From a bacterium (GTDB taxonomy: Bacteria > UBA8248), in NCBI GenBank assembly GCA_965203325.1, contig OZ241875.1, positions 1,530,212 to 1,594,211 on the forward strand: 64,000 nt of DNA. Reading direction: 5' to 3'. The notes under the pieces were generated by a model. It was not told the origin of the DNA. It ran no database searches and saw nothing but the letters and a program-made list of their open reading frames with translations. The number at the start of each line of letters is the position of its first letter. Position 1 is the stretch's first letter. The translations under genes and the position numbers were made by a program. Of the stretch, positions 9,925 through 58,392 are shown one piece after another.

Positions 9925-11915
<1,991 letters not shown>

Positions 11916-14568: not shown

Positions 14569-15393
14569 ATGAGCCGCTGGATACAGGAACTCACCTGGCC
14601 GGACGTGGAGGAATACCTGAAGCGCGGGGATACGGCGCTCGTCCCCGTCGGCGCCACGGAGCAGCACGGGCCGCACTGCCCCATCGGAACGGACGCGGCC
14701 GAGGCCATCGCGACCGCAGAGGAAGTGGCGGAGCGTGCGGACGCGCTGGTCGCCGCTCCCCTGTGGTTCGGCTGGTCGCCCCATCACCTCGCGTTCCCGG
14801 GGACGATATCGCTCGCCGCGGAGACGCTGACGCGCGTCGTCGAGGACGTATGCAACAGCCTCGTGGTCCACGGCTTCCGGCACATCGTGATCCTGAACGG
14901 GCACCGGGTCGCGAACCTCCCGCCGCTCGAGATTGCGATCGTAAGGGTCAGGAACGTAACGGGCGCGGCCATAGCCATCGTGGACCTGGCCCTCATCGCC
15001 GGCAAGGAGATTCGCGACGTATGCGAGAGCCCCCCGGGCGGCGTCGGCCACGGGTGCGAATCCGAGACCTCCTTCATGCTGTATAAATACGGCGAGCAGG
15101 TGAAGATGGAGCGCGCGGTGGACGCCGTCCCCGAGGTGGGCGAATTCGAGCACCGCTTCGTGTCCGTGGACCACGCCGTCAACCGGGTCGAGAACCCGAA
15201 GCTCTCCTTTCCGCCGACGACCGAGGAATACGGGCGGAACCGCGAAGCGATGGGAGTGGGCGGCGCGGCGACCTTCGCATCGGCGGAGAAGGGGGAGAAA
15301 ATCTTCGAGGCCATCGCCGCGAACACGACGAGATTCGTAAAGACCTTCCAGAACGTACCCGTCACCATCAAGGCGACCGCCCCGCCCTTATAA
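14569..15393 (+). CDS. creatininase family amidohydrolase
   Basis: GATEQHGPHCPIGTD signature. RBS GAGGAGA. Confidence 0.85.
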   Translation: MSRWIQELTWPDVEEYLKRGDTALVPVGATEQHGPHCPIGTDAAEAIATAEEVAERADALVAAPLWFGWSPHHLAFPGTISLAAETLTRVVEDVCNSLVVHGFRHIVILNGHRVANLPPLEIAIVRVRNVTGAAIAIVDLALIAGKEIRDVCESPPGGVGHGCESETSFMLYKYGEQVKMERAVDAVPEVGEFEHRFVSVDHAVNRVENPKLSFPPTTEEYGRNREAMGVGGAATFASAEKGEKIFEAIAANTTRFVKTFQNVPVTIKATAPPL

Positions 15394-15480
15394 GAGAAGA
15401 GGCGGGTGGCAGGGCCGGGTCGCGGCCTCGGACAGGCGCGGGGGGCCTGTCCGCTACGAAACCACTGCGTTTGGGTGCGC

Positions 15481-15735
15481 TCTCCCCTTGAGGGTATTTG
15501 CCTACCTAGAGCGAGGAAATCAACTCCCCCCTTGAGGGGGAGTCGAGGAAGCCGAGCGTTTTTTGCGAAGGCTGACTCGGTGGGGGGACATGCCACAGAT
15601 AAAACTCCCCCCACCGAATCGCTTGCGGGCATTCGCCCTTAGCTCTTCGACTCCCCCTCAAGGGGGGAGTTGATCTTGCTCGTTCATCGGGGTTTTTTAC
15701 CCCCCTGACAAGGGGGGGTAGGGGGGGTTGGTTTT
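15481..15735. repeat. composite GC-homopolymer palindromic element, copy A
   Basis: Hairpins ACTCCCCCCTTGAGGGGGAGT and CGGTGGGGGG...CCCCCCACCG, then the family arm TACCCCCCTGACAAGGGGGGGTAGGGGGGGTT. Duplicated at 17221-17490. Confidence 0.7.
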
Positions 15736-15933
15736 CCGGCCAATCGGACAACCACGGGGGAGGGTTGTCCCTACGCCCCGCGGCGTATCGAGACGACCCG
15801 TAGGGGCGCTTCGTGAAGCGCCCGTTTCTCCGGCAAGGACCGTTCACGAATGTGGGCGGTTCGCGAACCGCCCCTACGGTGGGTGCGGCGTTTGTCCGTC
15901 ATTCCGACCAGGGATGATTTTTTCAACAATCCC

Positions 15934-16347
15934 CTACTCCCCCGCCCGGTCTCCCCTCGCCTTCTTCGCCCTCATCAGAAACGCGCCCAGGGCGGGCAGG
16001 AGCGCGATGGCGCCCACCATGTTGACGAGGAACATGAACGAGAGCACCGTGCCCATGTCGGCCTGGAGCTTGAGCGGCGCGAATATCCAAGTCGCCACCC
16101 CCACCGCCAGAGTGAGGCCGGTGAGCACCACGCCCGCCCCCATGGTGGCGAGGGTGCGTTCGTAGGCGGCGGCGAAATCGAGTCCCTCCCTCATATAGGC
16201 GAGAAGCCGCCCGCAGATGTATATCCCGTAATCCACGCCGATGCCGACCCCCAGGGCCACCACGGGAAGCGTCGAGACCTTGAGGCCGATCTCCAGAAAC
16301 GCCATCAGGGCGCAGGCCAGGGTGGTGAATTTCTTTCCGGCTTGCAT
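15934..16347 (-). pseudogene. orphan 3'-terminal fragment (137 codons) of the RND/MMPL transporter gene
   Basis: About 95% identical to the last ~130 codons of the full gene at 17685..20033. Part of an ~0.8-kb segmental duplication. Confidence 0.7.
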
Positions 16348-16427
16348 TTGTTCTCTTTGAATTGTTCTTGATTTTTGGACCCCAATCAGACATATTGTTA
16401 TTATTTATTTTAATATAAGGACATCAA

Positions 16428-17033
16428 ATGAACCCGCAACTGATTGCACAACCCGAAGATATCTTCCGCAAAAACGGCGGCCAGCTTCGAATGAGCGAGG
16501 CTCTCGCCGGCGGGATGACGCGCTACACCCTGTATGCGCTCAGGGACAGGGGCGTCGTCGAGCAGATCACCAGGGGCGTTTATCGGCTTCGGGAACTGCC
16601 CCCGCTCGGCAATCCGGACCTGGTGACGGTGAGCCTTCGCTTTCCCAGGGCCGTCGTTTGCCTTGTCTCTGCACTTGCCTGGCACGAGATCACGACCCAG
16701 ATACCACGTGAAGTCTCCGTGGCGGTGCCGAAAGACTCTCGGACGCCGGTGCTCGACTATCCCCCCCTCAAGGCGCACAAATTCTCCCACGAAGCATACG
16801 AACCCGGCATCGAAGTACACCTGCTCGATGGAGCACCCGTCAAGATATACAACCCGGAAAAAACCCTGGCCGACAGCTTCAAGTTCCGCAACAAGATCGG
16901 CATGGACGTGGTGCTTGAGGCGCTGAAACTCCACAAGGAGCGAAACGGGATCAACCTCGGCGAACTTATCAAGTACGCAAAGATTTGCCGGGTCGAAAAC
17001 GTGATGCGGCCTTACCTGGAGATGCTCGTATGA
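16428..17033 (+). CDS. AbiEi-family antitoxin (type IV TA system transcriptional regulator)
   Basis: N-terminal wHTH ...LRDRGVVEQITRGVYRL typical of AbiEi_4. Followed by the start of an AbiEii-like ORF. Confidence 0.6.
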   Translation: MNPQLIAQPEDIFRKNGGQLRMSEALAGGMTRYTLYALRDRGVVEQITRGVYRLRELPPLGNPDLVTVSLRFPRAVVCLVSALAWHEITTQIPREVSVAVPKDSRTPVLDYPPLKAHKFSHEAYEPGIEVHLLDGAPVKIYNPEKTLADSFKFRNKIGMDVVLEALKLHKERNGINLGELIKYAKICRVENVMRPYLEMLV

Positions 17034-17112
17034 CGCCTCCGAGAAACGTATCCGCCTCCGTGCAGCAACGCCTCCTGAACCAGGCCAGGAGCGAAGGACG
17101 CCTCTTCGGATG
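17029..17112 (+). pseudogene. truncated AbiEii (DUF1814 nucleotidyltransferase toxin) remnant, ~28 codons
   Basis: MTPPRNVSASVQQRLLNQARSEGRLFG* matches the conserved AbiEii N-terminus. Start overlaps the AbiEi stop (ATGA). The rest of the gene is absent. Confidence 0.5.
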
Positions 17113-17220
17113 AGCCGATCCCTGCAAACTGGGCCGCGTCCGGCCCATGGAACTGATCTGGATTTTCTTCACATTTTTCTCATATTGAGGCTGTCCTTGA
17201 GATCGCAGCCGTAGGGACAA

Positions 17221-17490
17221 CCCCTTGTCAGGGGGGTAGGTGGGGTACTCCCTCCACCGAGGAGAATCCTAAATTCACTCCCCCCTTTTTTGAGGGGGAG
17301 TCGATGAGGCCGAGCCTTGGCGAAGGCCGATTCGGTGGGGGGACATGCCACAGAAAAACTCCCCCCACCGGTTCGGTTTCGGGCAAAAACCCCCTCACCT
17401 CACCGACTCCCCCTCAAGGGGGGAGTTGATCTTGCTCGTCCATCGGAGTTTTCATACCCCCCTGACAAGGGGGGGTAGGGGGGGTTGGTT
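17221..17490. repeat. composite GC-homopolymer palindromic element, copy B
   Basis: Left arm CCCCTTGTCAGGGGGG, internal hairpins, right arm CCCCCCTGACAAGGGGGGGTAGGGGGGGTT. Paralogous to 15481-15735. Confidence 0.7.
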
Positions 17491-17684
17491 TTCCGGCCAA
17501 TCGGACAACCACGGGCGCCTGTCCCTACGCCCCGCGTATCGAGACGACCCGTAGGGGCGCTTCGTGAAGCGCCCGTTTCTCCGGCAAGGGCCGTTCACGA
17601 ATGGGGGCGGTTCGCGAACCGCCCCTACGGTGGGTGCGGCGTTTGTCCGTCATTCCGAGCAGGGATGATTTTTTCAACAATCCC

Positions 17685-20033
17685 CTACTCCCCCGCCCGC
17701 TCTCCCCTCGCCTTCTTCGCCCTCATCAGAAACGCGCCCAGGGCGGGCAGGAGCGCGATGGCGCCGACCATGTTGACGAGGAACATGAACGAGAGCACCG
17801 TGCCCATGTCGGCCTGGAGTTTGAGGGGCGCGAATATCCAGGTCGCCACCCCCACCGCCAGAGTGAGGCCGGTGAGCACCACGCCCGCCCCCGTGGTGGC
17901 GAGCGTCCGCTCATAAGCCGCCGCGAAATCGAGACCCTCTCTCATATAGGCGAGTAGCCGCCCGCAGATGTATATCCCGTAATCCACGCCGATGCCGACG
18001 CCTAAGGCCACGACGGGAAGCGTCGAGACCTTGAGGCCGATCTCCAGAAACGCCATGAGGGCGTAGGCGAGGAGCGAGACGAGCGCGAGGGGCGCGATGA
18101 TGCAGACGGTCGCCGCCAACGAGCGGAAAGACAGCAGGCAGAGCAGGATGACCGCGGCGTAGACGTAGCCCAAGATCGGGAACTGCGACGCCTCTATCTC
18201 CTCGTTCGTCGCCGCCATCACCCCGACGTTCCCCGAGGCGAGGCGAAAGGTGGTGCGTTCATCGCGCTCCGCCAGGCTGAAGGCCTTGACGGCCGAGACG
18301 ACCCGGCGGATGGTCTCCGCCTTGTGGTCGGCGGTGTAGATGCGCACCGGCATCGCCGAGCAGTCGCCGTTCAGGAGCCCCGTGCTCGTCGGCACGAGGG
18401 AGACCGACTCGGCGAGCGCGTGGCGGTTGCGCGGCAGCGCGCGCCACTTGAGGCTGCCCTCGTTCCAGCCCGCGTTCAGCTTGCGGACGATGCCGGGGAG
18501 CGCGACCACCGAGCGCACGCCCTCCACGTTCCGCATGCGCCACTCGAACTCGTCGATGAGGCGCATCACGCGGTAATCGACGCACCCCTGGGGTATGGTC
18601 TCGACGATCACGGTCAACACGTCCACGCCGATGTTGAAGCGCTCGACGATGGCGGCGGTATCGCGGTTGTAGGTGGAAGTCGCGCGCAACTCCGGCACGC
18701 CCTGGTGCTGGTCGCCCACGCGGACCTCGGGCGCATAGCGCGCGCCGAGAGCGAGCAGGACGGCGGCGACGGCTATCGTCGCGATGGCGGGGCGCGGCCT
18801 GGCCGCCCGCGCGGCGCGCTTCCAGAGACCCGCCAAGAGTCCCGGTGAGGCCGCGCGCCCCCCGCCCTCCCCCGGCTTGAGGAAGGAAAGCGCCACCGGC
18901 AGTAATCCTAAGTTCGTCAGGATGATCGCGGCCACGCCCAGGCTGGCGGTGACGGCGATCTCTTGGATGACGCGCACGGGGATGAGCGCGATGGCCACGA
19001 AGCCGATGGCGTCCGAGGCCAGCGCCACCGAACCCGGCAGCAGCAGGCGGCGGAAACTCGCCCGCGCGGCGCGGACGCCGCCGCCCCCTTCGGCCCCCAC
19101 CGCGTTCACCATCTGCACCCCGTGGCTCACCCCGATGGCGAAGACCAGAAACGGCACCAGGATCGACATCGGGTCGACGCCGAAACCCAGGCCCGTGAGC
19201 GCGCCGAGCTGCCAGACGACCGCGACGAGCGAGCACGCCAGGGGCATCGCCGTGAGGCGGACCGAGCGGGTGTAGGCGTACACGAAAAGGGCGGTGATCA
19301 CGACGGCGAGGCCGAAGAACAGGAGCACCTGCGCCGCGCCGTCCGCTATCTCTCCCACGACCTTGGCGAACCCGATGATGTGGACGTTCGCGACGCCGCC
19401 GGCTTCTGCGTCGCGGCGGATGACCTCGAGCGCGCGCGCGACTTCGAGATAATCGAGCCGCTCCCCGGTGTCCGGGTGGAACTCCTGGAGCCTCGCGCTC
19501 ACGAGCGCGCCCGAGAAGTCGTTCGCCACCAGCCGTCCCACGATGCCCGCCTTGATGATGTTCTCGCGCACTCGCGCGAGGCCGGCCCTGGTGGGCTTGA
19601 AGTCCGCGGGCAGCACGTTGCCCGCGACGATGCCGTCCTCGACCACCTCGTTGTAGCGCACGTTCGGCGTGACCACCGAATAGACCTGGGTGCGGTCGAC
19701 GCCCGGCAGGAAGAATACGGCGTCGTTCACCTTCTGGAGCAGGGCGAAGAACTCCGGGCTGAAGATGTCGCCCTTCCGCGCGACGAGCGCCACCGCCACG
19801 CGGTCCGCGCCCCCGAAAGCGGCGCGGTGCTTGAGGAAGGTGCGCATGTACTCGTGTTCGAGCGGAATCAGCTTGGTGAAGCCCGCGTCGACGCGCAGCC
19901 CCGACGCCAGCCAGGCCATCGCCAGCGTGACCAGGAGGAACGCCGCGAGCACCCGCTTGCGGCGCGAGAACAGCGCGCGCTCGAGCCAAGCCGTCACCGA
20001 GGATGTCTTGGGAGAAGCGGAGGCGTCCGGCAT
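17685..20033 (-). CDS. RND superfamily / MMPL-type exporter (HpnN-like)
   Basis: 12-TM RND topology with two large periplasmic loops. Start taken at MPDASASPK (ATG 20033); the ORF-track start 20102 is GTG and would overlap the upstream gene. Confidence 0.8.
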   Translation of the reverse strand: MPDASASPKTSSVTAWLERALFSRRKRVLAAFLLVTLAMAWLASGLRVDAGFTKLIPLEHEYMRTFLKHRAAFGGADRVAVALVARKGDIFSPEFFALLQKVNDAVFFLPGVDRTQVYSVVTPNVRYNEVVEDGIVAGNVLPADFKPTRAGLARVRENIIKAGIVGRLVANDFSGALVSARLQEFHPDTGERLDYLEVARALEVIRRDAEAGGVANVHIIGFAKVVGEIADGAAQVLLFFGLAVVITALFVYAYTRSVRLTAMPLACSLVAVVWQLGALTGLGFGVDPMSILVPFLVFAIGVSHGVQMVNAVGAEGGGGVRAARASFRRLLLPGSVALASDAIGFVAIALIPVRVIQEIAVTASLGVAAIILTNLGLLPVALSFLKPGEGGGRAASPGLLAGLWKRAARAARPRPAIATIAVAAVLLALGARYAPEVRVGDQHQGVPELRATSTYNRDTAAIVERFNIGVDVLTVIVETIPQGCVDYRVMRLIDEFEWRMRNVEGVRSVVALPGIVRKLNAGWNEGSLKWRALPRNRHALAESVSLVPTSTGLLNGDCSAMPVRIYTADHKAETIRRVVSAVKAFSLAERDERTTFRLASGNVGVMAATNEEIEASQFPILGYVYAAVILLCLLSFRSLAATVCIIAPLALVSLLAYALMAFLEIGLKVSTLPVVALGVGIGVDYGIYICGRLLAYMREGLDFAAAYERTLATTGAGVVLTGLTLAVGVATWIFAPLKLQADMGTVLSFMFLVNMVGAIALLPALGAFLMRAKKARGERAGE

Positions 20034-20043
20034 GGGAATGCGC

Positions 20044-21018
20044 CTATCGGGCCCCGGGCAGGCGTTTGACCCCGAACTCGCCGAGCAGCAGCACCCGCCC
20101 ACCGGAAAGCGCGAGCGCTTTCGAGATTCCCAGGCGGGAGGTCAGGGGTTTGAACTTCGGATCGGTCGATACGCTGCGCCCGCCGTCGCGGCTGACGAGC
20201 AGTGCGCCCTCGAGGCCGGTGACGAGCAACAGACCCGGCTTCACGAGGAGCGCTCCGGTGAGGGTCGCTTTCGTCCGCGTGCGAACGCGCGTCCAGCTCT
20301 CGCCCCCGTCGTCCGAGCGATACATGCTGCCCCGCAAGCCGAACAGCAGCAGCCTGTCCGCATCGAGCGCGAGCGCACCGAACCACGAACCCGCATAGGG
20401 CGAGGGGAGCTTGCGCCAGGTGGAGCCGCCGTCGTCGCTTCGGTAGATAGCCCCCGCTTCCCCAGCGATGAACAGCCGACCGGCGCCTGCGGGAACGATG
20501 GCGTTCAGGTGGAAATCGTCCCTGTCGATGGTGCGCGGCTTCCAGGTGCGGCCGCCGTCCGAGGTGGCGAGGAAATAGCCGTACGCCCCCACGGCGAAGC
20601 CGTTTCGCTCATCGCGGAACCAGACGTCGAGCAGGGGGCGTTCTTCTTTAGGGGCGTAATGGGCCACGCTCCATGTCGCGCCGCCGTCTTCGGTGCGCAG
20701 GATGAGCGCGTCGTGCCCGACCGCCCAGCCGAGGCGCGCATCGCGCATGTGCACGGCGGTCAGCAAGGCGCGGACGGGAACCCGAGCCTGCTTCCACTTC
20801 AAGCCGCCGTCGTCTGAGACCAGCACGTGGCCGCGCTCGCCCACCACCACCAGGCGCGGGCCTGCGGACGCTCCGCCAATCAGCAGGGATTCGGGCGCGA
20901 GACGGGCCTGAACGGCCGGTTCGGCGTTCGCCGCGCCAATGGGCAGCAGACAGACGATGAGGGCGGGCAGGAGGCGTCGCCGCCGTTTTCTCAAAACCCC
21001 GAAGGTCGCCGCTATCAT
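20044..21018 (-). CDS. Ycf48-like BNR/Asp-box beta-propeller protein (secreted)
   Basis: Signal peptide MIAATFGVLRKRRRRLLPALIVCLLPIGAANA. Repeated S/TxDGGxTW motifs. Start ATG overlaps the DUF1329 stop (ATGA). The N-terminal 400 codons of the long ORF are antisense read-through. Confidence 0.75.
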   Translation of the reverse strand: MIAATFGVLRKRRRRLLPALIVCLLPIGAANAEPAVQARLAPESLLIGGASAGPRLVVVGERGHVLVSDDGGLKWKQARVPVRALLTAVHMRDARLGWAVGHDALILRTEDGGATWSVAHYAPKEERPLLDVWFRDERNGFAVGAYGYFLATSDGGRTWKPRTIDRDDFHLNAIVPAGAGRLFIAGEAGAIYRSDDGGSTWRKLPSPYAGSWFGALALDADRLLLFGLRGSMYRSDDGGESWTRVRTRTKATLTGALLVKPGLLLVTGLEGALLVSRDGGRSVSTDPKFKPLTSRLGISKALALSGGRVLLLGEFGVKRLPGAR

Positions 21019-22373
21019 CTCCTGCCCATGCGGCGCAGCGCCGAAGGCGTGAAACCTCTGGACGAGTAGTTCGAGCCGAAGACGTTCATGGGATACTCGT
21101 TGTTGAGCCCCAGCGCGAGGTAGCGCCCCGCCTGAATATCGGTGTGCACCTCGAGGGTAAAGCCCAGCAAGGGTTTTTCGTAATAGTTGACGGAGTGCCC
21201 CTCGGATACGCGCCAGAGCTGATCCCGGTTGTCGTAAATGTCGGAGAGCAGGATCATCCACGAGTCCTCGTCCACGTAGAACACCCGTTTCTTGTAGATG
21301 TGGCGCGCCCCTTCCTTGAGCGTCGCCTCGACCACCCAGACCCGGTGCAGCTCGTAGCGCAGATATTTCGGATTGACGTGCAGCGGCTTCAGAACGTCGG
21401 CGAAGGTGATCTTGTCGCTGTGCAGCTTGTAGCTGTTGTAGGGCACGTACATCTCGCGCTTGCCGAGTAGCTTCCAGTCGTAGCGGTCGAGCGCCCCGTT
21501 GAACATGTCGAACTGATCGCTCGTCCTGAGCCCGTCCGCGGCGGTGCCCGGATTGTCGTAGGCGATGTTCGGCGCGCGGCGCACCCGCCGCTGGCCGGGG
21601 TTGTACACCCAGGCGTGGCGCGGCTCGGCGACCTGGTTGAGCGTCTCGTAGGCCAGCAGGATCCTTCCCGCCAGACGCGCCGGCGCCGCCACCTTCTGCC
21701 GGAAGAGGATCATCCGGTTGTCGAGTTTCGCCTCCGTCATGCCCGGCAGGGAATAGCGCGCGAGGTATGCGTCCTCGAGCCGGACGAGGGTGTAATCGCC
21801 CCCCCTGGTGACGGCGGCCTGGCCGATGACGCGCGAGGCGGCCTCGCCCCGGTAGCGCAGCAGGTGATTCCAGATCACCTCTGCTCCGTTTTTGGGAACC
21901 GGAAACGGAATCCCGATCACAGCACCCGTCACGCCGCTGCCGCCCTCGGCGAGTTTCGCGGTGGCGGCGACGCGCCTGGTGGCGTCGTAGATGCGCTTCG
22001 GAAACGCGGCGCTGCGCCGGGTCGGGTAGACCGGCAGCCGGAGCGTCGGGTAAAGCTCCACCATCTTCTGGAGCCCGGCCGAGAGCTTCCCCCGATATTT
22101 GTCGAGGTTCGCGCGGGTGATGGTGAAGAGCGGCTTGTCGCCCGGATAAGGGTCGGGATGGTGGTCGCCCACCTTGTAGCCGGCCGGCGGGGTCGTGATG
22201 CCGCCCTTCCACTCCGGGATGGAGCCTTCGGCGTTGCCCCCCCGCTCCGCGCCGAGGGGGGTCAGGTCCTTCCCGAGCCGGGCGATCTCGTCGGCGGAAA
22301 CCGCGGCGGAGGCATTGGTCGCGATGAAGGTGAAAAGCATCGCGACGCTGATTCTCAAGATGATGGTTTTCAT
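21015..22373 (-). CDS. DUF1329 family lipoprotein (AupB-like)
   Basis: Signal peptide MKTIILRISVAMLFTFIATNASA and a DUF1329-like core. Confidence 0.75.
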   Translation of the reverse strand: MKTIILRISVAMLFTFIATNASAAVSADEIARLGKDLTPLGAERGGNAEGSIPEWKGGITTPPAGYKVGDHHPDPYPGDKPLFTITRANLDKYRGKLSAGLQKMVELYPTLRLPVYPTRRSAAFPKRIYDATRRVAATAKLAEGGSGVTGAVIGIPFPVPKNGAEVIWNHLLRYRGEAASRVIGQAAVTRGGDYTLVRLEDAYLARYSLPGMTEAKLDNRMILFRQKVAAPARLAGRILLAYETLNQVAEPRHAWVYNPGQRRVRRAPNIAYDNPGTAADGLRTSDQFDMFNGALDRYDWKLLGKREMYVPYNSYKLHSDKITFADVLKPLHVNPKYLRYELHRVWVVEATLKEGARHIYKKRVFYVDEDSWMILLSDIYDNRDQLWRVSEGHSVNYYEKPLLGFTLEVHTDIQAGRYLALGLNNEYPMNVFGSNYSSRGFTPSALRRMGRR

Positions 22374-22402
22374 GGCGGTTACCCCATTTTCATCGCTGTT
22401 GG

Positions 22403-24598
22403 TCAGAACAGGTATTTGACGGTGGCGGAGACGAAGTCGCGGTCGTTCGCCTGGTTGTGCCTGCCGGCGCCGCCGAACATGGTGAAGCTCACGTCGAAAT
22501 GCCAGCGGTTGAGATAGCTCGCGCCCAGCCCGAGGGTCACGGCGGTCCGGTCTTCTATGAACGGCCCGCCCGGACCGGGGCTGGTGCCCTTCACGTCGTG
22601 CTGGAACGACACGCGCGGCGCGACGTTCACCGCGCCGATGGCGTTGAGATACGACAGCCGCGCCGCCAGCCGATAGCCGTAGGAGGTGGCGCTCGCGAAC
22701 CGATCCAGCGGATCCGCCGGGAGGCCGGCGTGCGCGCCCGTCGGCGTGGAATGAAAGGGCTCCCCGCTGGTCTGCGTGCCCGGCCCCTCGAGGCGAAGCT
22801 CGCTCTTGTCCGGCATGTCGTGCACGTACATGAGCGCCGCCTCCGCGACGAACGCCAGGCTGTCCGCCCCCAGGGTGGGGCCGAACACCTTGGTGGCCGT
22901 GGCCTGGATCTGGCTCACGTCGCGCTCGATGTAGCCCTGGACATAGCTTTCGGGGGCAAAGACGCCGACCTGGTTCCGGCAGTAGGGGAAATCATTCGAG
23001 CAAGGCCTGTTGGTTGTGGGGTCGATGGTGAGCGGCGTCAGGGCCGCGAAGAACACTTCGGCGTCGTCTATCTGCAGGGGCGCGTCCATGCGGTAGGAGA
23101 GTTCTCCCTGCAGCGCCCATCCCGAGGTTCCGAGCACGGTGTTGAAGCTCAGGCCGAAGAGCTGGATGTCTTCGGGATATTCGGCGAAGTAGCTTGCCGT
23201 CTTCGTGTAGCGGTCAATGGCGAGGAGGCCGGCCATCCTGCTCACGTTGCTGGTGACCTGCTTGGCGACCTCGCCGGGGACTATGGCGGCGACTTGCCTT
23301 CGAACCTCCGCCTGAATGATCGCCGGCGGCGTGCCGGGCGGAACTTGCGCCGTAACCGCAGCGGTGACCTGCCGGGTGACCGCCTGTGTTACCAGCGGGG
23401 TGACCGCCTGCGTCACCGCCCGTGCGGTCGTGGAAGTGGGCGAACCGACCGCCGCCGCCGCGAAGAGGCCGTCCTGTATCCCCTGCACGGTGCCGGTGCG
23501 CCCGCTCAGGACGGGCAGGCGGCTGTGGTAGTTGACGAAGTAGACGCCGAACTCGGTGTTGTTGAGACCCTCGGCGAGGTAGCGCAGCGCGACCCCCCAC
23601 TGGCCGGAGTCTTCGGGTTCGTTGTCCGCATTGCGGAACACGTTCAGGAAATGGGGGTCGAAGGCCGCCTGCGCTCTCTGGGGCAGGGGCGTCAGGACGC
23701 CCGGCGCCGCGGGGCTGGGGATGCGGAAACCACGGAGGTCGGCGTTGATCGCCTGGGTCAGGCCGGGCCCCAACGCCTCGTAACTGAATCCCGTGTCGGG
23801 GATGGCCCCCCAGCCGAGCACGACCCTCCTCCCGCCCGCGCCGACGAAGTCGCTCGTCGAGAAGAAGCTGCCGGGCGGGTCGATCTCGGTCTTCTCCCAC
23901 TTCACCTGGTAGAAACCCTCCACGGAGAGGCTCTCGTGCAGTGAAGCCGAGACGGAGACCATCGGGACCGGCACGAGCCCGTCGCGCAACTCCGCGCCCG
24001 GCGTTCTCAGTTTGGTCACGTCGAAGGGGTTGATGACGTTGATGCTGTTCTGGATGAAGGTGCTCTCGCCCCAGCTGAGCACGTGATTGCCGAGCCGAAG
24101 GTCGATCGGCGCGCCGCCCAGATCGAACGAGCCGGTGAGGTAGAGATCGAGCACTTCGAAATCGTTTCCGACCAGATCCTTCGCTTCCGGCGATAGTTCG
24201 TCCCGCGCCCTGTCGCCGTTTTCGTTCTCGAAGTCGAAAAAGCCGTGCACGCGGGCGAAGGCGCCGAAGTTCCGGTAGTTGAGGTCGAGCTCGCCGATGA
24301 ACTTCGAAGCGTTGCTCACGACGCCTCTGTCGAAGTTGAGGTTGCCGTCGTCGCTGTTGACGGAGGTCGCCGTGCCTCCGTTGGCGATGCCGAGCAGGTT
24401 CTCGTCGCGCTCCCCGACGCGAAGGGTGACGCCGTGCGAGAGCGTGATGTCGAGGCTGCCTTCGAGTTCGCCGTGGGTGAAATCCTCCGCGCCCGCGGGC
24501 GCAGATGAGAAGGCGAAGACAAGGGCCAACGCGCAGGCCGCAAAACGAAGCGAGCGGGAGATGGATTCGAAATCGCCCCCTCGGGAGAGGCTGTTCAT
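22403..24598 (-). CDS. DUF1302 family outer-membrane beta-barrel protein (AupA-like)
   Basis: Signal peptide. C-terminal ...ATVKYLF ending in Phe. DUF1302-like length. Contains an internal (QAVT)n low-complexity insert. Confidence 0.75.
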   Translation of the reverse strand: MNSLSRGGDFESISRSLRFAACALALVFAFSSAPAGAEDFTHGELEGSLDITLSHGVTLRVGERDENLLGIANGGTATSVNSDDGNLNFDRGVVSNASKFIGELDLNYRNFGAFARVHGFFDFENENGDRARDELSPEAKDLVGNDFEVLDLYLTGSFDLGGAPIDLRLGNHVLSWGESTFIQNSINVINPFDVTKLRTPGAELRDGLVPVPMVSVSASLHESLSVEGFYQVKWEKTEIDPPGSFFSTSDFVGAGGRRVVLGWGAIPDTGFSYEALGPGLTQAINADLRGFRIPSPAAPGVLTPLPQRAQAAFDPHFLNVFRNADNEPEDSGQWGVALRYLAEGLNNTEFGVYFVNYHSRLPVLSGRTGTVQGIQDGLFAAAAVGSPTSTTARAVTQAVTPLVTQAVTRQVTAAVTAQVPPGTPPAIIQAEVRRQVAAIVPGEVAKQVTSNVSRMAGLLAIDRYTKTASYFAEYPEDIQLFGLSFNTVLGTSGWALQGELSYRMDAPLQIDDAEVFFAALTPLTIDPTTNRPCSNDFPYCRNQVGVFAPESYVQGYIERDVSQIQATATKVFGPTLGADSLAFVAEAALMYVHDMPDKSELRLEGPGTQTSGEPFHSTPTGAHAGLPADPLDRFASATSYGYRLAARLSYLNAIGAVNVAPRVSFQHDVKGTSPGPGGPFIEDRTAVTLGLGASYLNRWHFDVSFTMFGGAGRHNQANDRDFVSATVKYLF

Positions 24599-24915
24599 TG
24601 GTCGCCCGGCGCGGGTGCGGCGGGTGAAGTGGCTGGAGCGGGCTGGTTGCATGCCAGTGGGTCCCCCCTCGTTGCAGACAAGGTAATTTATTTCCTGGAA
24701 GTTCTCTTATCTTGTTTTGATGTGCGCTTCTGCAAGATATAGTTATCGCCTTGAGCTAGTCAAGAGAAATTCGAGCGCAACAAACCAGAAAATGGCGTTT
24801 TACGGATTGATTCCAGGATAGCGGTACGAACGAAGTGCTTCGGCGCTCCTGCACCATGGATCACGCCGATCGCGAGTGACCCGATACTTTTCGTGCCGGC
24901 TCTTTTGAGGAAGTG

Positions 24916-25989
24916 CTAACGTACGCGCGTTCCGTCGGGTTCGAAGAGGTAGACGCGCTCGGAGTCGAAGGTGACGTTCAACCGCTCGCCTTCCTTGAAG
25001 CGATCGCTCGCCTCGATGATCGCGATGGTCGGACGCTCGGCGCCGTGCTCGAAGTAGAGCAGCGTGTCCTTGCCGAGGGGCTCGACGAGCTGAATGTCGC
25101 ACGAGAAGGCGGCATCCTGGCTTCCCACCACGATGTGCTCGGGCCGCACGCCCAGGGTGTAGTCCCCCGGAGATACGCCCGCGTAGGCGTCGGGGAGTCT
25201 GAATTCAATTCCGGCGCCCGTGAAGGCGGTGGCGCCGTTCGATCCCTCCACCTTCCCCGCGATGAGGTTCATGGAGGGGCTGCCGAAGAAATCGGCCACG
25301 AAGTAGCTGACCGGGTCGTTGTAGATTTCCAGCGGAGTGCCCACCTGCTCGATGACGCCGTCGCGCATCACCACGATGCGGTCGGCCAGCGTCATGGCCT
25401 CCTCCTGATCGTGCGTGACGTAGACGAAGGTTTTCTTGAGTTCCTCGTGCAGCCTGTCGATCTCGGCGCGCATCTCACGCCTGAGCTTGGCGTCGAGGCT
25501 CGAGAGCGGCTCGTCCAGCAGAAAAGCGGCCGGGTCGGTGATGAGGGTGCGGGCCAGTGCGGCGCGCTGCGCCTCGCCGCCCGAGCATTCGACGGGCAGC
25601 TTGTGGAGAAGGTGTGTGATGCGCACCATGTCGGCCACCTCCCGCACCTGCTGTTTGCGCGTTTCCTCCGGCACCTTCTTCATCCGTGGGCCGAACTCGA
25701 TGTTCTCGGCCACCGTCTTGTGCGGGAACAGGGCGTGCGTCTGGAAGACCATGCCGACGCCGCGGTCTCCGGGGTCGACGTCGTTCACGAGCCGCCCGTC
25801 GATCTCGATCTCACCCGCAGTGGGCTCCTCGAAACCCGCGATCATGCGCAGCGTGGTCGTCTTCCCGCATCCCGAAGGGCCGACGATGACGACGAACTCG
25901 CCTTCCTCGATGGTGAAGTCGAGGTTCTTCACGGCCTCGATGTTCCTGCCGAATACCTTGCGTAAGCCCTTGAGTTCGATTCTCGCCAT
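24916..25989 (-). CDS. ABC transporter ATP-binding protein (MalK/UgpC type)
   Basis: Walker A GPSGCGKTT, signature SGGEAQR, Walker B FLLDEP. C-terminal TOBE/MalK regulatory domain. Confidence 0.9.
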   Translation of the reverse strand: MARIELKGLRKVFGRNIEAVKNLDFTIEEGEFVVIVGPSGCGKTTTLRMIAGFEEPTAGEIEIDGRLVNDVDPGDRGVGMVFQTHALFPHKTVAENIEFGPRMKKVPEETRKQQVREVADMVRITHLLHKLPVECSGGEAQRAALARTLITDPAAFLLDEPLSSLDAKLRREMRAEIDRLHEELKKTFVYVTHDQEEAMTLADRIVVMRDGVIEQVGTPLEIYNDPVSYFVADFFGSPSMNLIAGKVEGSNGATAFTGAGIEFRLPDAYAGVSPGDYTLGVRPEHIVVGSQDAAFSCDIQLVEPLGKDTLLYFEHGAERPTIAIIEASDRFKEGERLNVTFDSERVYLFEPDGTRVR

Positions 25990-25996
25990 TGTCCTT

Positions 25997-26899
25997 TTAC
26001 CTCTTCACCATTCCGAAAGTGAAACCTCGCACCAGGTGTTTTCGAATAAAAATGCCGATGACCATGAGCGGCAGCGTGATTCCCACCGCCAGAGCGGCCT
26101 GGTGGCCGTAGACGCGGCCCTCGTCGGAGCCTTCGTATTTCGCCAACTGGACGGGCAGCGTCACCACGTCCACCTTCGACAGCATGAGAGAGAGCAGATA
26201 TTCGCTCCACGTCAGGATGAGGATAAACAGGAACGTCGCCACGATGCCGGAGCGTATGAGCGGGAATATCACCTCGCGGATCGCCTGCCACTTGGTCGCG
26301 CCCAGAATCTCGGCGGCCTGTTCGATCTCGACGGGAACCTCGTCCACGAAGCTCTTCGTCATCCAGACGGAATACGGCAGTGTGGTGATGAAATAGACGA
26401 TAATCAGCCCCAGCGCCGTGTCCATCAGATGGATCGCCGAATAGTAGAGCGTCAGCGGCGCCGCCACCACGATGGGCGGAATCATCCTGAGCACAAGGAG
26501 CTGGAACATCCGTATCTCCGATAATATCCGGTACCGCGAGACCCCATAGGCCAGAATGGCTCCGAATGCGACCGAAAGCGCCGTGGCGGTGATGGCGATG
26601 TAGAGGCTGTTCCAGAGCGCCTGCCAGGGCTTGTTCGCCGAAGCCGACTCGTAGCGGGCCGTCTGTGTTTTCTCTTCGGTGGCGGTGCGGGGACTTTCGG
26701 GCCTGCCCCACACGGCCTGGTAATTGACCCAGGAGGCCTCCTTCGACCAGTAGACCGGCGGCCAGGCGTGCCATTCCCAGTCGGGCTTGAACGAGGTGGA
26801 AACTATCCAGAAAATCGGGAACGCCACGATCACCGACCATATGAAAAGCATGGCGTAGCGGAAGATGGTGAACAGGCGCGCCTTCTGTACTCGGTTCAT
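25997..26899 (-). CDS. carbohydrate ABC transporter permease (MalG/UgpE type)
   Basis: EAA-loop motif. Six TM helices. Confidence 0.85.
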   Translation of the reverse strand: MNRVQKARLFTIFRYAMLFIWSVIVAFPIFWIVSTSFKPDWEWHAWPPVYWSKEASWVNYQAVWGRPESPRTATEEKTQTARYESASANKPWQALWNSLYIAITATALSVAFGAILAYGVSRYRILSEIRMFQLLVLRMIPPIVVAAPLTLYYSAIHLMDTALGLIIVYFITTLPYSVWMTKSFVDEVPVEIEQAAEILGATKWQAIREVIFPLIRSGIVATFLFILILTWSEYLLSLMLSKVDVVTLPVQLAKYEGSDEGRVYGHQAALAVGITLPLMVIGIFIRKHLVRGFTFGMVKR

Positions 26900-32788: not shown

Positions 32789-32991
32789 GCGGAATACTCC
32801 CCTGCGTTTTCAGTATGAAATTCCGGCGATTCTATTACAGAAGCAGGGGGCTTGAAAGGCGGTGGCGCTCCGCAATTCCAGTCACTTCCGAACCTGCCAT
32901 TTCTTCATACAGCAGGGCGGTTCGCGAACCACCCCTGCCAAAGGGGGATATCCGTAAAGAATGGAGAACGAGAAACAGGCTGCTTATGATG

Positions 32992-41908: not shown

Positions 41909-42023
41909 CACCCCCCCCCTACCCCCCCTTGTCAGGGGGGCAAGAAAAAGCAAAACCCCCTCGGCCCGGCGGGGGCGCATCGCCTTTTTATACCCCCCTG
42001 ACAAGGGGGGTAGGGGGGGGTGG
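41909..42023. repeat. dual-arm GC-homopolymer palindromic element (inverted orientation)
   Basis: CACCCCCCCCCTACCCCCCCTTGTCAGGGGGG ... TACCCCCCTGACAAGGGGGGTAGGGGGGGG with a central CCCCC/GGGGG hairpin. Confidence 0.75.
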
Positions 42024-47149: not shown

Positions 47150-47423
47150 CCACAAGCAGGGCGGACGCACGGATCCGCCTCTGATAAAACATTGCGTTTT
47201 CGTTTCTCCGTAGGGGCGCTTCGCGAAGCGCCCAACCCCTCCGACAAGGGGCTGTTGAAATAGTCCTCTTCAGTTGGTATTCACCACCGTCGTCATTCCG
47301 GCAATCAATGCCGACTGAGGAGGGAGGGATTGCCCGGAATCCATTTTCAAGCAGAATGACAATACGCCGGCTTTTCATCTCCCCGTCATTGGCGGGAACC
47401 AATCAGAAAATAAAATACAAAAC

Positions 47424-47538
47424 CAACCCCCCCCTACCCCCCCTTGTCAGGGGGGTATGAAAAGGCGACGGCCGCCACCGGTAGAGGGGCATTTGTTTTT
47501 TCTTGCCCCCCTGACAAGGGGGGGTAGGGGGGGTTGCC
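47424..47538. repeat. dual-arm GC-homopolymer palindromic element
   Basis: ACCCCCCCCCTACCCCCCCTTGTCAGGGGGG ... CCCCCCTGACAAGGGGGGGTAGGGGGGGTTGCC. Downstream module with TTTTTCAACAA to ~47590. Confidence 0.75.
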
Positions 47539-58276: not shown

Positions 58277-58392
58277 AACCCCCCCTACCCCCCCTTGTCA
58301 GGGGGGTATAAAAAGGCGATGCACCTCCACCGGGCTGAGGGAGGTTTGCTTTTTCTTGCCCCCCTGACAAGGGGGGGTAGGGGGGGTTGCCT
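58277..58392. repeat. dual-arm GC-homopolymer palindromic element
   Basis: AACCCCCCCTACCCCCCCTTGTCAGGGGGG ... CCCCCCTGACAAGGGGGGGTAGGGGGGGTTGCC. Central CCTCC/GGAGG hairpin. Downstream module to ~58435. Confidence 0.75.

What the first reader, a model, noticed from the sequence alone, without database searches (positions are those of the whole stretch)
16428..17112. Orphan AbiEi antitoxin with a decapitated AbiEii toxin
The AbiEi-like gene (wHTH, ...ITRGVYRL) is intact. Its stop overlaps the ATG of an ORF whose first 27 residues, MTPPRNVSASVQQRLLNQARSEGRLF, match the conserved AbiEii/DUF1814 nucleotidyltransferase N-terminus. That ORF terminates after 28 codons and the remaining ~800 bp of the toxin is missing. 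This is either a decaying TA locus that keeps the autoregulatory antitoxin or a rearrangement product of the neighbouring duplication. Retained antitoxins can act as anti-addiction or regulatory modules.
Basis: partly seen in the sequence, partly recalled or inferred. Interest (0 to 1): 0.5.

Follow-up and report, generated by a model that had tools for sequence, protein, structure and literature searches.

The report
AbiE defence locus with deleted toxin
This is an ordinary AbiE toxin-antitoxin (phage-defence) gene pair in a sponge-symbiont genome: a recent 776-base deletion removed the core of the toxin gene and left the antitoxin/regulator gene intact, which turns out to be common in this gene family.

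Summary
abiEi (16428-17033, 201 aa) is an intact, full-length AbiEi antitoxin. Its stop overlaps (ATGA) a 27-codon ORF that is the true 5' end of abiEii.

The toxin is not cut off at one end. It carries a 776-bp internal deletion. The last 47-48 nt of abiEii, including its original stop, survive out of frame at 17109-17156. The junction (17102-17109) is one copy of an 8-bp direct repeat, CTCTTCGG. Near-identical sister alleles with an intact 300-aa toxin have that repeat at both deletion ends.

All four catalytic motifs and the whole Pfam AbiEii domain are lost. An independent metagenome assembly carries the identical junction, so this is a real allele that coexists with the intact one, not an assembly artefact.

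The flanking duplication did not cause it. The duplication is a 0.8-kb direct repeat made of REP-like elements plus the 3' end of an MMPL transporter gene. It is older and is shared with relatives whose toxin is intact.

Across the family, about 43% of 56 surveyed loci had a degraded toxin beside an antitoxin gene that was intact in all but one. No intact toxin stood beside a broken antitoxin.

The window shows toxin-first decay of a known system. Interest is low to moderate.

The parts
14569..15393 (+). Creatininase-family gene. It is the conserved left neighbour of the insertion site.
   Evidence: Pfam Creatininase E=8.2e-65. It is syntenic in L005, L007-L009, L011-L013 and L164.
15517..16321 (.). 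Left copy of a ~0.8-kb direct repeat. It consists of REP-like palindromic elements (15517-15930) plus a pseudogene fragment of the 3' end of the MMPL gene (15934-16321, minus strand; chance ORF 15934-16347).
   Evidence: 91.6% identical over 812 nt to 17271-18072. Pfam MMPL E=8.5e-14 for the 137-aa fragment. The same junction occurs in L001, L006 and L013; the fragment is shorter in L164/L165 and absent in L002.
16334..16427 (+). abiE promoter and putative operator. -35 TTGATT at 16368-16373, a 17-nt spacer, -10 CATATT at 16391-16396. Conserved half-site ATCAGACATATTGTTA at 16385-16400. RBS AAGGA at 16417-16421.
   Evidence: The block is invariant in the five close loci. The -35, -10 and half-site are conserved in 78 loci of the family. 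The half-site is the only such match in the window. The hexamer assignment is my inference; the consensus scan proposed a different, non-conserved -35.
16428..17033 (+). abiEi: intact AbiEi antitoxin and transcriptional regulator, 201 aa.
   Evidence: Pfam AbiEi_4. PADLOC AbiEi E=6.9e-72 over residues 11-200. PDB 6Y8Q/9HLO_A over residues 11-200. It belongs to the same 90% cluster as P0001.
17030..17113 (+). 5' remnant of abiEii. 80 nt of original sequence (17030-17109) are read as a 27-codon ORF that stops at a TGA created at the junction.
   Evidence: 27/27 residues are identical to intact AbiEii of L001/L164. PADLOC AbiEii model positions 4-24, E=0.0065.
17102..17109 (+). Deletion junction: the single remaining copy of the 8-bp direct repeat CTCTTCGG.
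   Evidence: In the intact allele L164 the repeat sits at nt 73 and 849 of abiEii, 776 nt apart. The identical junction is present in the independent assembly L187.
17109..17156 (+). 3' remnant of abiEii: the last 15 codons plus the original stop (DEPIPANWAASGPWN*), out of frame with the 5' remnant.
   Evidence: Translation. It matches the C-termini of L002 and L164 AbiEii. blastn aligns window 17102-17215 to L002 1845-1958.
17271..18072 (.). Right copy of the direct repeat: REP-like elements plus the 3' end of the intact MMPL gene.
   Evidence: It is contiguous with L164 5451-8606 at 96%.
17685..20102 (-). Intact MMPL/RND-type transporter gene. It is the conserved right neighbour and the first gene of a syntenic MMPL-BNR-DUF1329-DUF1302 cluster. 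The ORF is 805 aa; relatives are called at 782 aa, so the true start is probably internal.
   Evidence: Pfam MMPL E=4.4e-21. Synteny with L002 at 91% over 9 kb. 573 relatives found in genomes.

Best explanation
The locus is an AbiE abortive-infection / toxin-antitoxin cassette in a sponge-associated Nitrospinota chromosome. abiEi encodes a winged-helix regulator and antitoxin. abiEii encodes a DUF1814 nucleotidyltransferase toxin.

The cassette lies between a creatininase gene and an MMPL transporter gene. It is bracketed by a ~0.8-kb direct repeat.

In this genome a 776-bp deletion between two copies of the 8-bp sequence CTCTTCGG removed codons ~28-285 of abiEii. The likely cause is replication slippage or illegitimate recombination at that microhomology. 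The loss includes NTase motifs I-IV, the phospho-acceptor Thr and the whole Pfam domain. The 3' end is also shifted out of frame, so the toxin is dead.

What remains is abiEi with its promoter and a translationally coupled 27-aa peptide that is presumably inert. This null allele is recent and coexists in related populations with the intact allele.

It follows the usual asymmetry of toxin-antitoxin decay. Loss of the toxin is tolerated or favoured, whereas loss of the antitoxin is lethal while the toxin is active. Toxin-dead, antitoxin-intact loci therefore accumulate.

Shown:
- the identity of both genes;
- the exact deletion and its microhomology;
- its independence from the duplication;
- its presence in a second assembly;
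- the asymmetry across the family.

Inferred:
- the slippage mechanism;
- that abiEi is still expressed and autorepressed;
- that the locus no longer gives phage defence or addiction.
For: Gene identity:
- AbiEi.
- Intact sister toxins carry Pfam AbiEii (E=4.1e-49, residues 37-265), PADLOC AbiEii (E=4.3e-103) and match PDB 9HLO_B (E=3.1e-28).
- In the L164 toxin sequence I read motif I/II as LKGA-x15-DID with RPTMDID, and motif IV as KDFYD. These fit the patterns defined in PMC3985639. The Thr of RPTMDID aligns in pattern with the phospho-acceptor T65 described in bioRxiv 10.64898/2026.01.19.700257.

The deletion:
- Window 16334-17109 equals L164 3907-4682 (98.8%). Window 17102-20262 equals L164 5451-8606 (96%). 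The two alignments overlap on CTCTTCGG.
- That repeat is one of about six direct-repeat pairs of 8 bp or more in the intact gene.

Recency:
- L001 is 99.56% identical over 902 nt (4 SNPs) and has a toxin intact for at least 202 aa.
- None of the window's differences is an amino-acid change of its own.

Reality of the allele:
- L187 comes from another sample and assembly and has the identical junction.
- L187 sits on an abiEi haplotype whose sister L186, one SNP away in the abiE stretch tabulated, has a toxin intact to the end of its contig (203 aa or more).

Independence from the duplication:
- L006, L164 and L165 have the duplication plus an intact toxin.

Asymmetry:
- Of 56 dereplicated loci, 32 had an intact toxin, 11 a partial one, 8 a frame-broken one and 5 none. 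Before dereplication, abiEi was intact in 56 of 57.
- The toxin-seeded control gave 20 loci: no broken antitoxin (one was cut by the contig end) and 2 degraded toxins.
- L013 lost the toxin a second, independent time in the same genomic site.
Against: - Only 64 kb of a ~4.39-Mb chromosome was visible. A second AbiEii elsewhere could make abiEi not truly orphan. None is present in the window.
- The slippage mechanism is inferred from the microhomology alone.
- The same junction on two haplotypes could mean recurrence at a hotspot or spread by recombination. I could not tell these apart.
- The family survey was seeded on AbiEi and kept the best 80 of 449 hits. This favours intact antitoxins. Some 'frame-broken' toxins may be metagenome sequencing errors.
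- In this subfamily only the left half of the family's palindromic operator is conserved, so autoregulation is not established.
Confidence: 0.9

Rival explanations
1. The orphan abiEi is kept by selection for a function of its own. It might be an anti-addiction module that neutralises AbiEii brought in by mobile elements, or a co-opted transcription factor. On this view toxin loss is itself selected in these symbionts.
For: - In 24 dereplicated loci with a degraded or absent toxin, all abiEi ORFs but one (L113) are intact. These include loci with no toxin remnant at all.
- The promoter/operator block is as conserved in toxin-less loci (L098, L130, L131, L146) as in intact ones.
- Pairwise dN/dS of orphan versus nearest paired abiEi is about 0.12, against 0.097 for paired-paired comparisons.
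- The same null allele appears on two haplotypes.
- AbiEi homologues can regulate other loci (S. suis, cited in the discussion read) and affect phenotype on their own (title and abstract of PMC8436566, listed).
Against: - For this window the deletion is too recent for retention to carry any information.
- Many orphan loci are 98-99.5% identical to a paired sister (L098, L111, L137). Most orphans are therefore young, and pairwise dN/dS mostly measures time before the toxin was lost.
- Orphan lineages show a mild excess of unique amino-acid changes: 176 versus 141, p=0.056.
- The survey was seeded on AbiEi.
- No second operator site exists in the 64-kb window.
Confidence: 0.25
2. The truncated toxin is an assembly or sequencing artefact, and the real genome has a full-length abiEii.
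For: Intact alleles up to 99.6% identical exist in related samples. A mixed population could in principle confuse an assembler.
Against: - The missing stretch is 776 bp, not a small indel.
- The junction lies at an 8-bp repeat, which is far too short to collapse an assembly graph.
- The identical junction is present in an independent assembly from another sample (L187).
- Both flanks are collinear with the intact allele.
Confidence: 0.03
3. The toxin was lost as a by-product of the rearrangement that created the neighbouring 0.8-kb duplication.
For: The cassette sits exactly between the two repeat copies, and this region is prone to deletion. The MMPL' fragment is ~390 nt in the window, L001, L006 and L013, ~90 nt in L164 and L165, and absent in L002.
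Against: - The duplication junction (MMPL' | abiEi promoter) is shared with L006, L164 and L165, which carry a full-length toxin, and with L001, whose toxin is intact to the contig end.
- Both deletion endpoints are inside abiEii. About 60 nt of cassette flank (17157-17215) still follows the 3' remnant before the repeat begins.
Confidence: 0.03

Closest known systems
AbiE (AbiEi/AbiEii) abortive-infection toxin-antitoxin system of Streptococcus agalactiae and Lactococcus lactis. It was described as type IV (Dy et al. 2014, PMC3985639). A 2026 preprint proposes type VII (bioRxiv 10.64898/2026.01.19.700257).
   Same: - Bicistronic layout with antitoxin first and an ATGA overlap.
- AbiEi of about 200 aa with an N-terminal wHTH plus a C-terminal domain, alignable end to end with 6Y8Q and 9HLO_A.
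- Sister-allele toxin of 300 aa with motifs I-IV and the R-x-T-x-D-x-D segment, alignable to 9HLO_B.
- A conserved promoter-overlapping repeat in the wider family.
   Different: - The toxin here is a dead remnant.
- Sequence identity to the S. agalactiae proteins is low.
- The antitoxin loop D85-E86-I87 of S. agalactiae reads T-Q-I here, by my own residue count on the alignment with the residues named.
- The operator is CAGACA-N8-CCACTT ... AAGTGG-N8-TGTCTG in the family, not TGTTGCTTTTA-N27-TAAAAGCAACA. Only its left half is kept in this subfamily.
MenA/MenT (Rv2827c-Rv2826c and paralogues) DUF1814 systems of Mycobacterium tuberculosis
   Same: The same COG5340 antitoxin / DUF1814 NTase pairing. 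The toxins inactivate tRNA acceptor stems (abstract of PMC7450476, listed). Neutralisation is by antitoxin-induced toxin phosphorylation.
   Different: No activity can be expected from the remnant here. Relatedness was not tested directly against the Mtb proteins.
Orphan antitoxins in bacterial genomes. For example, a survey of marine MAGs found orphan antitoxins enriched for type IV: 118 orphan type IV antitoxins against 9 orphan type IV toxins (PMC12654330).
   Same: An intact antitoxin gene without a functional cognate toxin, and the same asymmetry.
   Different: Here the origin of the orphan is resolved to the base pair, and the intact parental allele is still segregating. The orphan is demonstrably a recent decay product, not a diverged or mis-annotated pair.

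Membership tests
AbiE toxin-antitoxin / abortive infection system | AbiEi antitoxin: COG5340-type protein with an N-terminal winged HTH and a C-terminal antitoxicity domain | tested here: met
   Pfam AbiEi_4 at residues 11-54, 38.3 bits against a cut-off of 25. PADLOC AbiEi over residues 11-200, E=6.9e-72. Alignment to 6Y8Q and 9HLO_A over residues 11-200.
AbiE toxin-antitoxin / abortive infection system | Bicistronic operon with the antitoxin gene immediately upstream of the toxin gene | tested here: met
   ATGA overlap at 17030-17033. The same arrangement with a 300-aa toxin is found in L002, L164, L165 and L188.
AbiE toxin-antitoxin / abortive infection system | AbiEii toxin: DUF1814 nucleotidyltransferase with motifs I-IV (hG[G/S]-x15-DhD, a K/R motif III, and +DxxD) | tested here: not met
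   In the window only codons 1-27 and the last 15 codons survive. The Pfam domain (residues 37-265) and all four motifs are deleted. The feature is met in sister alleles. The window therefore holds a degraded member, not a functional system.
AbiE toxin-antitoxin / abortive infection system | Negative autoregulation by AbiEi binding to inverted repeats in the abiE promoter | tested here: inconclusive
   The family-wide nested palindrome overlaps the -10 and the 5'UTR in 78 loci. The Nitrospinota subfamily keeps only the left half (16385-16400). Binding was not testable.
AbiE toxin-antitoxin / abortive infection system | Toxicity of AbiEii, neutralisation by AbiEi, and phage resistance | not testable with these tools
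   This needs expression and infection assays.
Selectively retained orphan antitoxin (anti-addiction or regulatory module) | No functional cognate toxin anywhere in the genome | tested here: inconclusive
   tblastn finds no other AbiEii or AbiEi in the 64-kb window. The remaining ~4.3 Mb of the chromosome could not be retrieved.
Selectively retained orphan antitoxin (anti-addiction or regulatory module) | Purifying selection on the antitoxin after toxin loss | tested here: inconclusive
   For the window the deletion is too recent: 4 SNPs from the intact-toxin allele L001. Family-wide, dN/dS is about 0.12 against 0.097, and the relative-rate counts are 176 against 141 (p=0.056).

The most novel reading that the evidence does not exclude
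Toxin loss in this AbiE subfamily may be a recurrent, selected event in host-associated and sediment bacteria rather than neutral decay. On this reading the surviving AbiEi, with its conserved operator, is kept as a stand-alone immunity factor against AbiEii-bearing mobile elements, or as a regulator. The CTCTTCGG repeat would then act as a deletion hotspot that produced the same null allele twice.
Probability: 0.15. Interest if true: 0.5.

Novelty: already known. Interest (0 to 1): 0.25.

Why it matters
The consequences are modest. The locus is a clean example of how toxin-antitoxin and abortive-infection modules die, resolved to the base pair. The toxin goes first, through a microhomology deletion, while the intact parental allele still circulates in the same symbiont populations.

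For annotation, it means this genome should not be credited with a working AbiE defence system.

The family-wide count of about 43% toxin-degraded loci, against none with a broken antitoxin beside an intact toxin, quantifies an asymmetry that TA theory predicts and that marine MAG surveys had already hinted at. It suggests AbiE counts in defence-system censuses are inflated if only AbiEi is scored. Whether orphan AbiEi proteins have a second function remains open.

Tried and rejected
- Pfam on the 27-aa stub gave only a chance sub-threshold FitA-like hit, because the Pfam AbiEii model starts at residue 37. NCBIfam had no model for either protein.
- Looking up the window's own contig by exact protein failed twice. 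The rest of the genome could not be searched for AbiEii paralogues.
- An Rfam scan of 15000-18200 returned only sub-threshold hairpin-like matches to the REP elements.
- A search for further copies of the operator half-site in the window found none.
- My first attempt to align upstream regions by inferred start codon failed, because most relatives start 4 codons later. I re-anchored the alignment on the coding sequence.
- I considered whether the duplication arose by Campbell-type integration of a circle carrying abiE plus MMPL homology, or by tandem duplication followed by concerted evolution. The copies are mosaic: 98% identical in the middle and about 94% towards the abiE side. Only 3 of about 130 codons differ at the amino-acid level. 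In each genome the MMPL' copy resembles that genome's own MMPL gene. I could not decide between the models.
- I rejected a sequencing indel, a rearrangement linked to the duplication, and an assembly artefact, for the reasons given under the rival explanations.

Full report
**What is in the sequence**

ORF 16428-17033 (+) encodes a 201-aa protein. It matches Pfam AbiEi_4 above the curated threshold at residues 11-54. It matches a PADLOC AbiEi model over residues 11-200 (E=6.9e-72). It matches the solved S. agalactiae AbiEi structures 6Y8Q and 9HLO_A over residues 11-200 (E about 9e-11).

Its stop codon overlaps (ATGA, 17030-17033) the start of a 27-codon ORF, MTPPRNVSASVQQRLLNQARSEGRLFG*, which ends at 17113. 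Pfam sees nothing in this stub. The reason is that the Pfam AbiEii domain only begins at residue 37 of intact homologues. The stub does hit positions 4-24 of the PADLOC AbiEii model that best matches the intact toxin (E=0.0065).

**Related loci settle the identity of the stub**

A search with AbiEi returned 4,791 homologues, many at 70-100% identity. Contigs encoding the closest ones show abiEi followed by abiEii:

- L001: 99.56% identical to window 16208-17109, with a toxin open for at least 202 aa to the contig end.
- L002, L164, L165 and L188: toxin of 300 aa carrying Pfam AbiEii.

The stub is 27/27 identical to the N-terminus of the L001 and L164 toxins. The L164 toxin matches Pfam AbiEii (E=4.1e-49), PADLOC AbiEii (E=4.3e-103) and PDB 9HLO_B (E=3.1e-28).

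Reading its sequence, I find LKGA-x15-DID with RPTMDID, and KDFYD. These fit motifs I/II and IV defined by Dy et al. 2014 (PMC3985639). The R-x-T-x-D-x-D pattern contains the Thr that the 2026 preprint reports as the phospho-acceptor. That last mapping is my reading of the sequence, not a tool result.

**The lesion**

Window 16334-17109 aligns to L164 3907-4682 (98.8%). Window 17102-20262 aligns to L164 5451-8606 (96%). The two alignments overlap by the 8 bases CTCTTCGG.

In L164 that octamer occurs at nt 73 and nt 849 of abiEii, 776 nt apart. It is one of only about six direct-repeat pairs of 8 bp or more in the gene. The window keeps one copy, at 17102-17109.

The toxin therefore carries a 776-bp internal deletion. 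Because 776 is not a multiple of 3, a TGA arises at the junction. The last 15 codons and the original stop survive out of frame at 17109-17156 as DEPIPANWAASGPWN*. The entire Pfam domain and every catalytic motif are gone. A deletion between short direct repeats is the classical signature of slippage or illegitimate recombination. That mechanism is inferred, not shown.

**The allele is real and recent**

L187 is a 1,058-nt scaffold from a different sample and assembly. It is collinear with window 16116-17174 and carries the identical junction.

L187 sits on a different abiEi haplotype, 96.9% identical to the window. Its sister L186, one SNP away in the abiE stretch tabulated, has a toxin open to the contig end (203 aa or more). 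The window's own closest allele, L001, differs by 4 SNPs and has the toxin.

None of the window's differences is an amino-acid change of its own. The one non-synonymous site, 16981, is shared with L164. The null allele is therefore young and coexists with the intact allele. It has either arisen twice at the same microhomology or moved between haplotypes by recombination. The SNP pattern is mosaic (see L164), so recombination is plausible.

**Genomic setting**

The MMPL neighbour places the window among sponge-associated Nitrospinota MAGs, by the organism titles of L006, L009 and L010. The window's AbiEi sequence is on record from a 4,392,711-bp contig.

In six related species the site is empty: MMPL, intergenic spacer, creatininase. 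These are L005, L007, L008, L009, L011 and L012; in L009 the gap is only 224 bp.

In the window, L006, L013, L164 and L165 the cassette lies between two direct copies of a segment made of intergenic sequence plus the 3' end of the MMPL gene. The short scaffold L001 shows the left junction only. In the window the copies are 15517-16321 and 17271-18072, 91.6% identical. The junction between the MMPL' fragment and the abiEi promoter is shared across these lineages.

The fragment is decaying. It is about 390 nt in the window, L001, L006 and L013, about 90 nt in L164 and L165, and absent in L002. L006, L164 and L165 have the duplication and an intact toxin, and both deletion ends lie inside abiEii. 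The duplication therefore did not cause the toxin loss.

How the duplication arose remains unresolved. The candidates are Campbell-type integration and tandem duplication followed by gene conversion.

**A second, independent toxin loss in the same site**

L013 is a different species. Its abiEi is intact (201 aa), but abiEii breaks after about codon 13 (MTPPRNVPASVRQ|LLPRWRR...). An unrelated 193-aa ORF with no Pfam match follows.

**How usual is this?**

A scan of JGI metagenomes seeded on AbiEi gave 80 loci at 67-74% identity. I pooled these with the seven Nitrospinota loci, including the window. After dereplication, 56 loci had room for a toxin:

| Toxin state | Loci |
|---|---|
| Intact (~300 aa) | 32 |
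| Partial deletion | 11 |
| Full length but frame-broken | 8 |
| No remnant | 5 |

Several partial deletions keep both ends of the gene, as the window does (L084, L125, L137). Before dereplication the abiEi ORF was intact in 56 of 57 loci.

The reciprocal control was seeded on the toxin in IMG/VR. It gave 20 loci: no broken antitoxin (one was cut by the contig end), two degraded toxins, and no intact toxin beside a broken antitoxin.

Caveats:
- The AbiEi-seeded scan kept the best 80 of 449 hits, which favours intact antitoxins.
- Some frame breaks may be assembly errors.

The asymmetry agrees with TA logic. It also agrees with a marine MAG survey that reported 118 orphan type IV antitoxins against 9 orphan type IV toxins (PMC12654330).

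**Is the orphan antitoxin maintained by selection?**

For the window nothing can be said, because the deletion is too recent. Across the family the results are as follows:

- Pairwise dN/dS between orphan abiEi genes and their nearest paired relative is about 0.12 (median taken by hand from the values). Paired-paired comparisons give 0.097.
- A Tajima-type count gives 176 unique amino-acid changes on orphan lineages against 141 on paired sisters (p=0.056). Using only loci with deleted toxins, the counts are 100 against 81 (p=0.18).
- Many orphans are 98-99.5% identical to a paired sister, so most are young.

This is compatible with continued constraint. It is equally compatible with rapid turnover of young orphans.

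**Regulatory region**

Aligning 78 upstream regions revealed a strongly conserved block:

- CTTGATTTT, containing the -35 TTGATT;
- then ATCAGACATATTGTTACCACTTAT-AAA-CAAGTGGAGAC-TTTTTGTCTGGAG, followed by the start codon.

This is a nested palindrome, CAGACA-N8-CCACTT...AAGTGG-N8-TGTCTG. It covers the -10 (CATATT), the transcript start and the 5'UTR. Its position matches that of the inverted repeats AbiEi binds in S. agalactiae (PMC3985639). It is equally conserved in toxin-less loci.

In the Nitrospinota subfamily only the left half is kept (window 16385-16400). The start codon lies four codons upstream. No other copy of the half-site occurs in the window. Autoregulation here is therefore plausible but not established.

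**Mechanism, as far as it can be stated**

In an intact AbiE system, AbiEi represses the operon and neutralises AbiEii. Published models differ:

- Dy et al. 2014 describe type IV neutralisation without a stable complex.
- The 2026 preprint describes a stable complex followed by induced auto-phosphorylation of the toxin, with tRNA-directed UTP/CTP transfer as the toxic activity.

In this window the toxin cannot fold or catalyse anything. The locus can therefore provide neither abortive infection nor addiction. What remains is presumably a self-repressed regulator gene plus a coupled 27-aa peptide.

**Verdict**

'Decapitated' should read 'internally deleted'. The AbiE assignment and the 'decaying TA locus' reading are supported, and the duplication-rearrangement reading is not. 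The system and the phenomenon are both known, so interest is low to moderate.

The most novel reading still open is that toxin loss is selected and the orphan AbiEi is retained for its own function. I put this at about 0.15.

Noticed in passing
window 15517-15930 and 17216-17680; also 32914-32938, 41914-42019, 47210-47234, 47429-47532, 58280-58385: At least three kinds of G+C-rich REP-like palindromic elements fill intergenic regions: CCCCCCTGACAAGGGGGGGTAGGGGGG, GACTCCCCCTCAAGGGGGGAGT and GGGGCGGTTCGCGAACCGCCCCTAC. They often occur as inverted pairs about 80 nt apart (41914/41993, 47429/47506, 58280/58359). Shuffled sequence gives no matches. Copies also occur in related genomes.
   Followed up: partly
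window 15517-16321 versus 17271-18072; L006 7171-7681 versus 10088-10600; L013 8255-8337 versus 10622-10704: The abiE cassette is bracketed by direct repeats made of the 3' end of the MMPL gene plus lineage-specific intergenic DNA. In each genome the truncated MMPL' copy resembles that genome's own MMPL gene. The C-termini are RAKKARG[D/E]RAGE in the window, KPKRARD in L006 and KPKRGRGDD in L013. This suggests gene conversion between the copies or repeated integration. Recombination between the repeats would excise the cassette precisely and recreate the empty site seen in six related species.
   Followed up: partly
L013 8934-9617 (CBDCRP010000002.1): A second, independent loss of abiEii at the same chromosomal site in another species. 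The toxin is broken after about codon 13 and followed by a 193-aa ORF beginning with a hydrophobic, signal-peptide-like stretch (MKSFLCAVTLILLVGLPVFSGAAQ...) and no Pfam match.
   Followed up: partly
L187 (ENA ERZ23495127 scaffold_221120) and L186 (ERZ23495175 scaffold_114718): The same 776-bp deletion junction occurs on a second abiEi haplotype, about 3% diverged from the window. That haplotype's sister allele still has the toxin open to its contig end. This is either a deletion hotspot or a null allele spreading by recombination.
   Followed up: partly
78 loci; window 16368-16400: A family-wide conserved promoter plus nested palindrome, CAGACA-N8-CCACTT-N9-AAGTGG-N8-TGTCTG, lies upstream of abiEi. 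It is a candidate AbiEi operator and differs in sequence from the S. agalactiae IR1/IR2. The Nitrospinota subfamily has lost the right half and gained four N-terminal codons.
   Followed up: partly
L006 7429-7809 and 10346-10801 (minus strand): A small ORF of unknown function is duplicated along with the repeat in L006. It starts MNLHEEHDRP..., has a hydrophobic segment and then a repetitive RRH(D/N)E(A/F)M(T/A) region. The two copies differ in repeat number (126 versus 151 aa). There is no Pfam match.
   Followed up: no
L166-L185 (IMG/VR contigs): Relatives of this AbiE pair (46-71% toxin identity) occur on 20 contigs classed as viral, so the family also travels on phage or prophage-like elements.
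   Followed up: no
window 17685-26734: A conserved gene cluster (MMPL transporter, BNR/PSII_BNR repeat protein, DUF1329, DUF1302, then ABC transporter genes) is syntenic at 91% with L002. MMPL homologues at 59-79% identity occur in many sponge-associated Alpha- and Gammaproteobacteria and Binatia MAGs.
   Followed up: no
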